Positions 10,871 to 57,394 of a stretch of 64,000 bases of DNA are shown here, piece by piece (position 1 is the first letter of the stretch; each line of letters begins with the position of its first letter). The DNA comes from Eledone cirrhosa (Eukaryota). Both the position numbers and the translations under genes were made by a program. The notes beneath the pieces are model-generated. The model was not told the origin of the DNA. It made no database searches and saw nothing but the letters and a program-made list of their open reading frames with translations. The stretch is taken from contig OZ024747.1 in the NCBI GenBank assembly GCA_964016885.1, positions 34,224,001 through 34,288,000 on the forward strand, in the 5' to 3' direction.

Positions 10871-10910
10871 GCACCTACGTACGTTTCGCCCGAAAGAGCT
10901 TCTCAAGGGC
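10871..10910 (-). ncRNA. Minimal type I hammerhead, U3-A8 variant
   Basis: GCCC-UUGAGAA-GCUC[UUUC]GGGC-GAAAC-GUAC-GUA-GGUGC. Confidence 0.7.
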
Positions 10911-11461
10911 ATAAAAAAACTAGAAAGTGTTCCTTACATGATCCGGAATGGGTTTTTAGAAATAAGTTCACGTCACAGTTTATTCTTCGTAAAAAAACAT
11001 GTATTGATTTTGCAGTAGGTCAAGGGAGATAACTCTAACCGGTGTTAGAGCAGTTTTCTCCAGGCGACTTTTTTTATCCGAGTGAAAGCCGTAAACCGGG
11101 TCACCCTGCACCAAACTTTAACACCCCGGCGGGCAGGCGCTGCAAAAAACATCCGGAAACTAACCATGCATCCCATACCCGGCACAAATCGCCCCAGGCG
11201 AGCAGGTACAGTAAACAAACATCTGGAAACTAACGTTGCATACCTGACTCTGTGCGTATCGACAATGGTAAAGCTGTAACCACAAAGCAATAATGGATAA
11301 AAAGTCGCCTGGAGAATACTGCTCTAAAACCGGTTAGATTTATCTCCCTTGACCTACTGCAAAATCAATACATGTTTTTTTACGAAGAATGAACTGTGAC
11401 GTGAACTTATTTCTAAAAACCCATTCCGGGTCATGTAAGGAACGCTTTTTTAGTTTTTTAT

Positions 11462-11501
11462 GCTCTTGAGAAGCCCTTTCGGGCGAAACGTACGTAGGTG
11501 C
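11462..11501 (+). ncRNA. Minimal type I hammerhead, U3-A8 variant
   Basis: GCUC-UUGAGAA-GCCC[UUUC]GGGC-GAAAC-GUAC-GUA-GGUGC: perfect stem II, palindromic ACGUACGU stem III, short stem I. Confidence 0.7.
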
Positions 11502-13140
11502 TATCTTAAATAAACATGTTTTAACGGTTTGTTCTCCTTTACATATTTCTCCACGTGTATCCGCTCTGCTGACTTTCTCACCCACTAGATAGTAACACTT
11601 CTAATATTTAACACTGCAGGCACACGCATTGAGCACCCTTTGCATGTGCTATTGGCAAATAACTACATCTATCGCCTATCTCTTCTTCTCTCTCTCGATA
11701 CTTAATTACTCTCTCTCTATCTCTCTCTCTCTCTCTCTCTCTATATATATATATATATATATATATATATATATAGAGAGAGAGAGAGAGAGAGAGAGAC
11801 AGAGAGAGGGAGAGACACACACACATCTTTATATGTGTGTGTTGTGTGTGCCTATATTAAAACATAATATGTATATAACCATGAACACACAAATTCATGC
11901 TCATACACACTCGTCTATTTATGCATGTAAATATTTCTATATATAATTATTAGACATAATACCCGCATTTTATTAAAAACATATTTATTTTAAATATATG
12001 CTTCAACTTTAAAGTAGTATACAAAAGCACGATAGCTAAGTTTGCTACCATCTCTTCTAGAGTCGGTGTTCATATTTAAAGACAATATTTTCATAGATTT
12101 TCTTTTATTGATCGTCCAGGGTATCAATATAGGCCTAGTATGTGATCAATAGTATCCAAAACTCATTTATGTTGATAGAAGGCGGAAAGTAAGTAAGCAA
12201 GCAGTTATGATAAAAAAAATCAATAGAAAGCACATATGAGGAAATAAAATAGCATCTGAGGAAATAATGTATATCGTCTAGATCATTATTCATAAATTAT
12301 TTTTCTGTGGTGCCAAAACTAAAATTTCGTCTGTTGTAATTTTCAAAAGAAATAAATGAATTAATGGCATTCTGTATTTATTATAATAGGCATTTTCTTC
12401 ATCTTTGCCAGAAGGGCGACAGCAATATAATATTATCAGTATAATGTATAAAAAATAGACATTAAACATATCAATATAAATATATATGACGAAAAATATG
12501 TAAAAATGTGTACAAAGAGCTAGATACAGTCAAATAACTAATACTAGTTTAAGCATTAAGTAGAGGCTCACGTTCGAAATTGTAATTTAAGTTAATAAAT
12601 ACATATTGAGTGTAAGCTCATTTGCACGAGCCATTTTCACATACCTCCACCAACCTTTATGCCAATTCACTGGTTAGCCATAAATTCTGTTTTCATTCGC
12701 GCTGTGCTCTCCAAGTGAAATATGAAGAAGTTGTTGAATGCTTTGTTAAAAAAGGAAAGTGTCTGTCTCCAGTCCTTTTAGGAAGTAATTCGCCATTCAC
12801 ATCAAAAGTGAAGCGATGATATGATTGTCACGATACACGCAGTCGATAGTCAAAAATGCTCTATTCCCTGCAGTAACTATAGGACATTATTGCACATATC
12901 AGTAACTCTGAGCCATAGATCCAATGGATGGTAAGAGAAACTCGGAAAAAGGGCCCGCTTAAGCCATTTATTCTTGACATGATTTCTATATACTACATAT
13001 ATAAAATCCGCGTTAACGAATATAAGATTACGCAAAAAATAATAGGTCATGAATAAAGAGTCTAAAATATATGCATTCACATGCTCACATACTAAACATA
13101 TATTCTTCTTTTTCTTGTTCTCCTTCTTCTCCTAGCCTCT

Positions 13141-13199
13141 TTTTTCTTCTTCTTCTTCTTCTTCTTCTTCTTCTTCTTCTTCTTCTTCTTCTTCTTCTT
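13141..13199. repeat. (CTT)n microsatellite
   Basis: Direct trinucleotide run. Confidence 0.95.
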
Positions 13200-13859
13200 A
13201 ATAATAATGTTTCGCTTCTCCATAATAATAATTAAAAAAAAACGCTACCATTTTTGTACACCCAACCAATAAAATACCACATTTATACCAAGTTACGCAG
13301 AATCCGATAGTCCATTAATTTAGTGACGCCATGATTTCGGTATCACCCACACACTAGCTGTGTTAACACTTTAACTATTCCCTCTTGGTCTTGTGTTCAA
13401 CTCTCACTCCCCCTTACCCCCATCTTCCTCTCACACAACCTCCCTTTACAACCACCTTCCACTCAATACTGGCCAATGAACTCTCTCACTCTATTTTACA
13501 TTTGTTTTCTATTATATTTTTATTTTCATGTTATTATTTAACTAATATTTTTCAATAGAGCCTTTTTTAAGCCCAAACCTCACCATCTTCAAAAAAGCTT
13601 GCCAATAAACATTACGTTATTCCCATTAGTGCGTACACACACACACACACACACACACACACACACACACACACACACACACACACACACACACACATGC
13701 ACCCCACCCATATATATATATATATATATATATATATAAAGCCCAGGTCAACCATACATGATTGCTGAAAACAGAGCAATATTGTTTCGCACTATCTCAC
13801 CCATGGATCTGGCGTCCCATTTACATAAATCAGAGGGCCAACAGTGCTCACAATGACCT

Positions 13860-14430
13860 TGTGTATTTTCGCAAATGAAAAGAACTCTTTGAGATTGAGC
13901 TTGATTTTCACAAAGGCACATTTATTCTCAACTGTTCTTTACTTATTGACGATGGACTTCGTGCATTGGAAGTTATCTTTTTTTATTCGAGCCGTGCGAT
14001 AGCCGTCAAATGTGTTGCTGTTGGCAGTATTTTAGTTTGGTGATATATTTTTGTTGTTATTTAAATTTTTCTGATAATAATTTTTCTCTTTTAGTGGGTT
14101 CTGCACTTAGCTTTGTCCTGGTTGGGTGTGTTTTGCACATATGTATGTGACAGTTTCTACAAATATATGCCAAGATGTTTTGATGGCGGTGGAGATGCGT
14201 GCATGTAGGACAGACCAGTCAACACGTTATAGCTCATTAGTGATTGCATTCCAGTTGGCCTTATAAAGATCCATGTTATCAAATGGGTGACATAGAAAGA
14301 GGTCGTTGAATTTAGCTTTCGGCTGGTGGAATCTCAGGTTACATAGAATCATGTCATGGTCTGATAGAAGGTTTCTTCCAACTGTAATATTGTGTATTGT
14401 ATCTTGTTGGTGCAAGGACAAGATGCGACA
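13860..14430 (-). mobile_element. Decayed LINE fragment (CR1/Jockey group), end of AP endonuclease plus linker
   Basis: Translation includes IHNITVGRNLLSDHDMILCNL (APE terminal SDH motif), LYKANWNAI, and downstream KIKLNLKEFFSFAK, resembling the IKxNPKxF linker motif. Confidence 0.6.
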
Positions 14431-56567: not shown

Positions 56568-56751
56568 TGTTTCTACTTTAGGCACAAGACCAGCAATTAC
56601 CCAGTACATTACTGGTACTTTATTTTATCTACCCCGTAAGGATGAAAGGCAAAGTGAACCTCGGCAGAATTTGAACTCAGATCGTAAAGGGACGTAACTA
56701 TGCTGGAAAGCATGGCGTCCGACCCTCTACCAATACTGCCAATCCACCGCC
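56568..56751 (-). mobile_element. Complete tRNA-derived SINE with 18-bp TSD
   Basis: GGCGGTGGATTGGCAGTATTGG (A box) and GAGTTCAAATTC (B box). CTGAACCAGATCAATAAT at 56550-56567 and 56752-56769. Confidence 0.92.
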
Positions 56752-56842
56752 CTGAACCAGATCAATAATGATATATAATCATTTGATCCAGAAATATTAT
56801 ATGGAGTAGCGAAACAATTGTAATTGGTAATTATTATTATTA

Positions 56843-56978
56843 TTGACTTTGCCTTTCATCCTTACGGGGTCGATAAAATAAAGTACCAGTAATGCACTGA
56901 GTAATTGCTGGCCTTGTGCTTAAAGTAGAAACAATTATTATTATTGTAATTGCTGGCCTTGTGCCAAAAGTAGAAACA
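56843..56978 (+). mobile_element. 5'-truncated SINE with duplicated tail
   Basis: GACTTTGCCTTTCATCCTTACGGGGTCGATAAAATAAAGTACCAGT..., with the tail GTAATTGCTGGCCTTGTGC..AAAGTAGAAAC present twice. Confidence 0.85.
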
Positions 56979-57210
56979 ATTATTATATTGTAAACGGACA
57001 TTATTATTATTATTATTATTCTCTACATTCCTTACATCAAACTAAAATATGTTGACAATCTTTTAATAATGTCTCCCTTGTGCAATCTGTGGTCTTGTTT
57101 GGCTTAACTAATGAATATATATAGATATATATAGAGAGAGCAAAAAAGATGAAATCGAAAATGTAACTGGAGTCTTATTTAAAAAAAATATATATATAGT
57201 TATTTGGTTC

Positions 57211-57246
57211 CTTTACCGGTTTCGAAGTTCTTCTGCTTTTCAAAAG
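57211..57246 (-). ncRNA. Minimal hammerhead, U3-A8 variant
   Basis: CUU-UUGAAAA-GCAG[AAGAA]CUUC-GAAAC-CG-GUA-AAG. Confidence 0.62.
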
Positions 57247-57358
57247 TAGAGTTGAGATGGAGGGTCTGTGGTTTTTCTCACATCTCACATCACTTTGCTT
57301 AGATGTGAGAAAAATGCTTAGATGTGAGAAAAACCACAGACCCTCCATCTCAACACTA

Positions 57359-57394
57359 CTTTTGAAAAGAAGAAGAACTGCGAAACCGGTAAAG
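57359..57394 (+). ncRNA. Minimal hammerhead, U3-A8 variant
   Basis: CUU-UUGAAAA-GAAG[AAGAA]CUGC-GAAAC-CG-GUA-AAG. Confidence 0.62.

What the first reader, a model, noticed from the sequence alone, without database searches (positions are those of the whole stretch)
10871..57394. Compensatory U3-A8 core (UUGANAA) recurs in five independent families
Seen: UUGAGAA (10871/11462), UUGAUAA (27803), UUGACAA (34712), UUGAAAA (57362 family and the Neptune pLTR). C3U and G8A occur together while position 7 takes all four bases. Established: C3-G8 is a tertiary base pair of the active hammerhead and N7 is free. Inference: this covariation is strong internal evidence that these are selected ribozymes, which searches for CUGANGA would miss.
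Basis: partly seen in the sequence, partly recalled or inferred. Interest (0 to 1): 0.75.

Follow-up and report, generated by a model that had tools for sequence, protein, structure and literature searches.

The report
U3-A8 hammerheads of Penelope-like retrotransposons
These are real hammerhead-shaped, likely self-cutting RNA motifs at the ends of Penelope-like jumping genes; their swapped U-A core pair is a published variant, but two related lineages multiplied to hundreds or thousands of copies with a core predicted to be damaged, a natural test of whether these elements need the cut.

Summary
All named sites are minimal type I hammerhead motifs with a UUGANAA core, at 3' ends of Penelope-like elements (Hydra-type, Neptune-type) or in a 593-nt non-coding repeat. 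They form four lineages, not five: the 57362 family and the Neptune pLTR are homologous. In an evenly spaced 1.2-Mb genome sample, a descriptor with positions 3 and 8 free gave 21 C3-G8, 19 U3-A8 and no C3-A8 or U3-G8 (shuffles about 1.5); alignment tallies gave 114 C3-G8, 44 U3-A8, 3 mixed of 165. Core and stems stay fixed across subfamilies while loops drift, so selection on the fold is supported. U3-A8 in Penelope hammerheads is already published (PMC4209133, PMC3088659). The Neptune pLTR motif has A13C in all four window copies. Cleavage is untested. The scan noted the mismatch lineage before on other DNA of this genome.

The parts
11462..11501 (+). Family A minimal type I hammerhead, core UUGAGAA at 11466, 4-bp stem II, palindromic stem III, GUA site, bulged stem I
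   Evidence: 98 genome matches, 95 U3-A8; Hydra-like endonuclease about 420 nt upstream in 10 copies
10871..10910 (-). Family A hammerhead in the inverted arm of the same insertion, core at 10906
   Evidence: arms 10817-11068 and 11304-11555, 94%
27798..27887 (+). Family B hammerhead, core UUGAUAA at 27803, long stem II, 10-nt palindromic stem III, GUC site, 5-bp stem I
   Evidence: folds as a hammerhead dimer in cofolding; 6069 genome matches
27323..28129 (+). Family B element: 593-nt non-coding unit with a 214-nt direct repeat; retrozyme-like
   Evidence: 27323-27536 vs 27916-28129, 99%; 590-595 nt tandem spacing genome-wide; longest ORF 78 codons
34707..34801 (+). Family C hammerhead, core UUGACAA at 34712, long stem II (this copy lacks G10.1), 5-bp stem III with palindromic loop, GUC site
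   Evidence: Hydra-type endonuclease about 750 nt upstream in other copies
57359..57394 (+). Family D hammerhead, core UUGAAAA at 57362, stem II mismatch variant, ACCGGU palindrome, GUA site, 3-bp stem I
57211..57246 (-). Family D hammerhead in the inverted arm, core at 57243
22213..22248 (+). Family D' hammerhead-like motif in the Neptune-type pLTR, U3-A8 with A13C (GCAA)
   Evidence: 1093 nt downstream of the endonuclease
10589..10625 (+). Family D' copy, U3-A8 with A13C
33071..33107 (+). Family D' copy, U3-A8 with A13C
9422..9458 (-). Family D' copy, U3-A8 with A13C
17950..22361 (+). Decayed Neptune-type Penelope-like element: broken RT, CX4CxxC linker, GIY-YIG endonuclease, 3' region ending at (TA)n
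   Evidence: translations; motifs as in PMC8557442; no Pfam hit for the pieces
34956..37960 (+). Decayed Hydra-type Penelope-like element (CxCX5C linker) whose own hammerhead at 37866 is canonical C3-G8; its ORF does not belong to the 34712 family
   Evidence: only 35-53% protein identity to family C ORFs
39503..39563 (+). Example of a canonical C3-G8 hammerhead in the window (others at 738-, 16004-, 16941+, 26507-, 38175-, 45110-, 59939-)
22855..22910 (+). Single decayed C3-A8 copy of a C3-G8 family
   Evidence: 13 of 14 sample and window copies of this family are C3-G8

Best explanation
The motifs are minimal type I hammerhead folds at the 3' ends of Penelope-like retroelements and their non-coding derivatives, in which the core 3-8 pair is U-A instead of C-G, and they likely cut the element's tandem transcript, mostly as dimers. 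Shown: the fold, the link to Hydra-type and Neptune-type endonuclease genes, the near-exclusive C-G or U-A states across families, and conservation of core and stems against loops. Inferred: U3-A8 arose by two transitions through a mismatched state, probably more than once, helped by AT-biased mutation; selection on the fold is real but soft, so master copies with a weakened core (C3-A8, A13C) could still multiply, in line with in vitro data that cleavage is not needed for insertion.
For: Descriptor with 3 and 8 free: 21 C-G, 19 U-A, 0 C-A or U-G of 42 hits in 1.2 Mb, shuffles about 1.5; looser descriptor: 8 of 8 multi-locus clusters matched. Alignment tally 114 C-G, 44 U-A, 2 C-A, 1 U-G, 4 other of 165, with 14 of 660 decayed bases at other core sites. 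Six subfamilies of family C differ at 3 of 46 core and stem columns versus 191 of 335 flank and loop columns; for columns not fixed by my anchor, 1 of 27 versus 14 of 40 loop columns, p 0.0025. Double-sided stem II changes between relatives. Palindromic stem III in A, B, D, D'; B cofolds as a hammerhead dimer. Endonuclease upstream at a fixed distance in A, C, D, D'. Natural U3-A8 and its in vitro activity are stated in PMC3088659 (section 8 read) and PMC4209133. HHR mutants did not affect insertion in vitro, PMC11167929 (passages).
Against: No cleavage or expression data. A C3-A8 subfamily amplified (827 matches) and D' carries A13C in 41 of the first 100 D/D' matches, so an intact core was not required in those lineages. 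Monomer and dimer minimum-energy folds of A, D and D' do not give the full hammerhead; stem I of D' is 3 weak pairs. Family seeds were limited to C-G and U-A hits, and my descriptors missed family A and the C sister subfamilies, so other mixed lineages may exist. Multiple origins are not proven (AU p 0.2 and 0.057).
Confidence: 0.82

Rival explanations
1. The hammerhead is a passenger: the fold is kept for protein binding or as a landmark for reverse-transcription start, not for cutting, and U3-A8 is inherited from a few founders.
For: Amplified C3-A8 and A13C lineages; copies run about 20 nt past the cut site before (TA)n; PMC11167929 found cleavage dispensable in vitro and no RNA-seq ends at the cut site.
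Against: Catalytic positions U4, G5, A6, A9, G12, A14 and the UH site are fixed across all families tallied; 26 of 27 family-level states are Watson-Crick (not phylogenetically independent); younger family C subfamilies have the pair.
Confidence: 0.12
2. The C3-A8 subfamily is still an efficient ribozyme through another route: a shifted C3-G7 pair, a protonated C-A wobble, or protein help, so selection for cleavage is strict after all.
For: The mismatch occurs only in a background with G at position 7, and the rest of its core and stems is unchanged; PLE hammerhead cleavage was protein-assisted in PMC11167929.
Against: No structural or kinetic test; single 3-8 mutants abolished cleavage in the one PLE tested (C3G, G8C); the pair is present in the younger subfamilies.
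Confidence: 0.25
3. The matches are chance AT-rich heptamers or decayed canonical hammerheads.
For: UUGANAA is the commonest of the four heptamers in this 35% GC window; Rfam reports no hammerhead.
Against: Full folds exceed shuffles about 25-fold; thousands of near-identical copies carry U3-A8; decay would give mixed states, which are rare.
Confidence: 0.01

Closest known systems
U3-A8 minimal hammerheads of Cercyon PLEs in Schistosoma mansoni (Cervera and De la Pena 2014, PMC4209133; parts 1-2 of 4 read, one of two supplementary files searched)
   Same: Type I minimal hammerheads in pLTRs, U3-A8 covariation, inverted pairs, many families per genome, palindromic stem III, G10.1-C11.1
   Different: Here U3-A8 is tied to Hydra-type and Neptune-type elements and to a retrozyme-like repeat; amplified C3-A8 and A13C lineages are not mentioned in the text read
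Natural U3-A8 core variants (Perreault et al. 2011, PMC3088659; section 8 and passages read)
   Same: Same compensatory pair, described as active in vitro
   Different: Rare there; about a quarter of sampled copies here. A13C and C3-A8 are not among the variants named in the section text (figure not seen)
Hydra-clade and Neptune PLEs (Craig et al. 2021, PMC8557442; section 11 and passages read)
   Same: C-terminal GIY-YIG, CxCX5C or CX2-5CxxC linker, (TA)n targets, inverted truncated copies, hammerhead near the 3' end
   Different: Their hammerheads are called canonical; supplements with the motifs were not examined
Metazoan non-LTR retrozymes (PMC7229834, passages; bioRxiv 10.64898/2026.07.22.740005, passages)
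   Same: Family B is a non-coding tandem unit with one type I hammerhead per unit
   Different: 593-nt unit is longer than the 170-400 nt reported; U3-A8 core; no circular RNA shown here

Membership tests
Type I hammerhead ribozyme (PLE minimal form) | Three helices around core boxes in type I order | tested here: met
   stem I is short (3 bp) in D and D', bulged in A
Type I hammerhead ribozyme (PLE minimal form) | Watson-Crick pair at 3-8 | tested here: met
   U3-A8 in all 10 named-family window copies; not met in the C3-A8 sister subfamily elsewhere in the genome
Type I hammerhead ribozyme (PLE minimal form) | G12 A13 A14 box | tested here: inconclusive
   met in A, B, C, D; not met in D' (A13C in 11 of 11 sample and window copies)
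Type I hammerhead ribozyme (PLE minimal form) | A15.1-U16.1 and NUH site; palindromic or stable stem III | tested here: met
   GUA or GUC in all; palindromes in A, B, D, D'; 5-bp stem III in C
Type I hammerhead ribozyme (PLE minimal form) | Match to Rfam hammerhead models | tested here: not met
   no hammerhead family among 138 matches at E up to 5, for variant and canonical copies alike
Type I hammerhead ribozyme (PLE minimal form) | Site-specific self-cleavage | not testable with these tools
   no assay or RNA reads
Hydra-clade PLE (families A, C) | RT then GIY-YIG with CxCX5C linker, hammerhead at 3' end, (TA)n target | tested here: met
   family C sister copies carry RT, thumb and endonuclease pieces with this linker, end at (TA)n; family A by endonuclease likeness only (29-32%); no reference phylogeny built
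Neptune PLE (families D, D') | CX2-5CxxC linker before GIY-YIG | tested here: met
   Neptune versus Nematis not resolved, no reference sequences used
Non-LTR retrozyme (family B) | Non-coding tandem units with one type I hammerhead each | tested here: met
Non-LTR retrozyme (family B) | Expressed as circular RNA | not testable with these tools
   no RNA data examined for this family

The most novel reading that the evidence does not exclude
This genome preserves a compensatory core change caught in the act: a Hydra-type Penelope lineage retrotransposed through several rounds and more than 800 surviving pLTR copies with an unpaired C3-A8 core, then restored the pair as U3-A8 in its younger subfamilies, while a Neptune-type lineage reached thousands of copies with A13C. 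Hammerhead cleavage would then be helpful but not required for Penelope spread, and the dated subfamilies give a natural series to measure it.
Probability: 0.45. Interest if true: 0.55.

Novelty: new member of a known kind. Interest (0 to 1): 0.3.

Why it matters
The U3-A8 pair itself confirms published work and reminds one that hammerhead censuses need a free 3-8 pair: about a quarter of sampled copies (44 of 165) would be missed by CUGANGA. The more useful part is the exceptions. Whether Penelope-like elements need their hammerhead is open (low in vitro activity; dispensable for insertion in one in vitro system). Lineages that amplified with C3-A8 or A13C cores, beside close relatives with intact cores, let one compare natural variants directly.

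Tried and rejected
Rfam scan found no hammerhead; the repeat finder was swamped by microsatellites. DNA search for family B returned nothing, not even itself; a pattern search later gave 6069 matches, so the blank was a filter effect. Pfam did not recognise six broken PLE pieces; clades were assigned by motifs and likeness. I first took the ORF at 34956-36572 as belonging to the 34712 motif; rejected, since its own hammerhead is the C3-G8 one at 37866. An amplified C3-G8 sister of family C as ancestor: only 15 matches genome-wide, scattered and partly from other families. Rescue of C3-A8 by A-to-I editing: would leave G8 in daughter copies, but only 4 of 35 non-A8 rows are C3-G8 against 827 C3-A8, and U3 copies show 14 such changes (patterns differ slightly). 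Homopolymer error as the source of C3: rejected, C3 is linked to other diagnostic bases and both bases stand at about equal depth in contigs of four public runs (one study, possibly the source sample). No RNA holder listed. The large endonuclease tree did not finish its careful search and holds rows where the gene belongs to a neighbouring insertion; I used 17 hand-picked of 69 rows. Papers not held and so not seen: Lunse 2016 (PMC5785218), Przybilski and Hammann 2007 (PMC1986816), Nelson and Uhlenbeck 2008, Martick and Scott 2006; they may already report C3-A8 or A13 variants and their rates. Searches for C3U/G8A, U3A8, A13C and octopus with hammerhead found no paper on an amplified mismatch lineage.
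Full report
Observation. The window is 34.6% GC, microsatellite-rich animal DNA from a 3.0-Gb genome. UUGANAA alone occurs 88 times, so I scanned for whole type I hammerhead folds with positions 3, 7 and 8 free and read the sites by eye. All named sites have stem I, core, stem II, a GAAA-type box, stem III and a GUA or GUC site. Family-based assignment finds 20 motifs in the window: 10 U3-A8, 9 C3-G8 and one decayed C3-A8. Rfam reports no hammerhead for any of them.

How many families. A (11466+, 10906-) is one insertion with two inverted arms. B (27803) lies in a 593-nt non-coding unit; its pattern has 6069 genome matches, often 590-595 nt apart, which fits a non-LTR retrozyme. 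C (34712) is a pLTR copy that has lost G10.1. D (57362+, 57243-) and the Neptune pLTR motif D' (22216, 10592, 33074, 9455) are homologous (78% over 77 nt; one pattern catches both, 23601 matches). So there are four lineages in the window; a fifth U3-A8 family (G) appeared in the genome sample. GIY-YIG endonuclease lies upstream at a fixed distance in A (10 copies), C and its sisters, D (2 copies) and D'. A and C group with Hydra-type, D and D' with Neptune-type endonucleases (linker motifs as in PMC8557442). C3-G8 families fall between A and C on the tree, which suggests more than one origin, but holding all A8 rows together was not rejected (p-AU 0.2; A plus C 0.057; 17 of 69 rows, 179 columns). 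Independence is therefore likely but unproven.

Covariation. I took 120 evenly spaced 10-kb stretches. A strict descriptor gave 42 hits: 21 C3-G8, 19 U3-A8, one A-C (overlapping a C-G hit), one U-U; three shuffles averaged about 1.5 hits. A looser one on the sample plus window gave 80 hits, with all 8 multi-locus clusters matched (5 C-G, 3 U-A) and other states at shuffle level. Aligning family seeds, so that the core is not required, gave 165 copies in 27 groups: 114 C-G, 44 U-A, 2 C-A, 1 U-G, 4 other, against 14 of 660 decayed bases at U4, G5, A6, A9. Genome-wide patterns with N at 3 and 8 gave U3-A8 in 95 of 98 (A), 99 of the first 100 (B) and 100 of the first 100 (D, D'). Scaling 44 per 1.2 Mb gives roughly 100,000 U3-A8 copies; this is a rough extrapolation. 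Limits: seeds came from C-G and U-A hits, and the descriptors missed family A and the C sisters. No G3-C8 or A3-U8 family was seen; U-A is the one alternative reached by two transitions.

Selection on the fold. Among six subfamilies of family C (86 of 110 copies kept), majority bases differ at 3 of 46 core and stem columns and 191 of 335 flank and loop II columns. My anchor fixed part of the 5' half, and the flank has indels; for the unanchored 3' half the count is 1 of 27 against 14 of 40 in loop II (p 0.0025), and that one change keeps a G-U pair. Double-sided changes in stem II separate G subfamilies and D from D'. B cofolds as a full hammerhead dimer; D and D' pair only through the stem III palindrome, and A's minimum-energy folds are not hammerheads.

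Exceptions. (1) A sister group of family C has 1455 exact pattern matches, 827 of them C3-A8; position 8 other than A appears in only 35 matches of a looser pattern. C3 is linked to other diagnostic bases, C3 copies carry RT and endonuclease pieces, and both bases stand in short contigs of public runs. With position 3 masked, all 34 G7 C3-A8 copies lie on one side of a 100/99 branch (84 of 110 rows). That tree and one on endonuclease DNA (20 rows) both place the U3-A8 sister subfamilies inside the C3-A8 copies, with family C (U3-A8) as outgroup; C3 monophyly is not rejected (p-AU 0.073). Within-group divergence is 0.074 for C3, 0.077, 0.064, 0.061 and 0.021 for the U3 sisters, so C3-A8 is among the oldest. 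The simplest reading is U3 to C3 and back, or a mismatched ancestor repaired twice; no amplified C3-G8 sister exists (15 matches). (2) D' has A13C in 11 of 11 sample and window copies and 41 of the first 100 D/D' matches; A13 is part of the core consensus (PMC7151607, passage).

Mechanism. Established: C3-G8 is a core pair, U3-A8 occurs in nature and is active in vitro (PMC3088659); metazoan PLE hammerheads are minimal, work as dimers and cut slowly (PMC4209133; PMC6765202, passages). In one PLE, single 3-8 mutants abolished cleavage, the double mutant partly restored it, cleavage needed the protein, and insertion in vitro did not need cleavage (PMC11167929). Inferred here: the motif trims tandem transcripts to unit length or circles; selection keeps the fold over long times but lets weakened masters multiply. 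No cleavage or transcript was shown here.

What is known. U3-A8 in PLE hammerheads was reported in 2014, with about 1300 hits in Schistosoma from a dedicated descriptor. The finding is thus a new set of members of a known kind. My searches found no paper on amplified C3-A8 or A13C lineages, but four key papers were not held, among them the one on PLE hammerhead variants that cleave as dimers, and figures and most supplements were not seen. Earlier notes of this scan on other DNA of the same genome report the same mismatch lineage; I had found it before that look-up.

Verdict. Observation real with corrections; interpretation right in outline, overstated in independence, strictness and novelty. 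Interest 0.3; the mismatch and A13C lineages would deserve about 0.55 if kinetics and a firmer tree bear them out.

Noticed in passing
window 10592, 22216, 33074, 9455; genome-wide: The Neptune-type pLTR hammerhead has A13C at family level, by extrapolation close to 10,000 copies; may be inactive or a tolerated variant.
   Followed up: partly
L241-L304, e.g. L298:4953: Hydra-type subfamily with unpaired C3-A8 core, 827 matches, with RT and endonuclease.
   Followed up: yes
L298:4995-5045 and L285-L289: The 3' half of the family C hammerhead is about 15-20 times deeper in public contigs than the 5' half, and many loci hold the 3' half alone, often next to (TA)n: most copies seem to begin inside the motif.
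   Followed up: no
L177:766, L195, L129, L130, L212, L217: A fifth U3-A8 family (UUGAUAA, 10-nt palindromic stem III) with a double-sided change in stem II; its parent element is unknown.
   Followed up: partly
L121-L240: About 165 hammerhead-like copies in 27 groups per 1.2 Mb, suggesting some 400,000 in the genome; none of the window's copies is found by Rfam.
   Followed up: partly
window 27323-28129: 593-nt U3-A8 retrozyme-like unit, longer than the metazoan retrozymes in the paper read, forming tandem and mirror arrays genome-wide.
   Followed up: partly
window 10157-10527: Three tandem copies of a 124-nt unit in the Neptune-type 3' region upstream of the D' motif; one copy at 22015.
   Followed up: no
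window 31188-32965: Large inverted repeat with a 539-nt period and no hammerhead found by my descriptors.
   Followed up: no
window 53831-55806 (-), 17082-17437, 33306-33818, 8029-8760: Decayed non-LTR (RTE-like, name from recall) retrotransposon pieces; RVT_1 hit at 53831-54436.
   Followed up: no
L090, minus strand, 1085 from its 3' end: A UUGACAA motif with an 8-bp stem I and a GAUA box; single copy seen, possibly another U3-A8 family.
   Followed up: no
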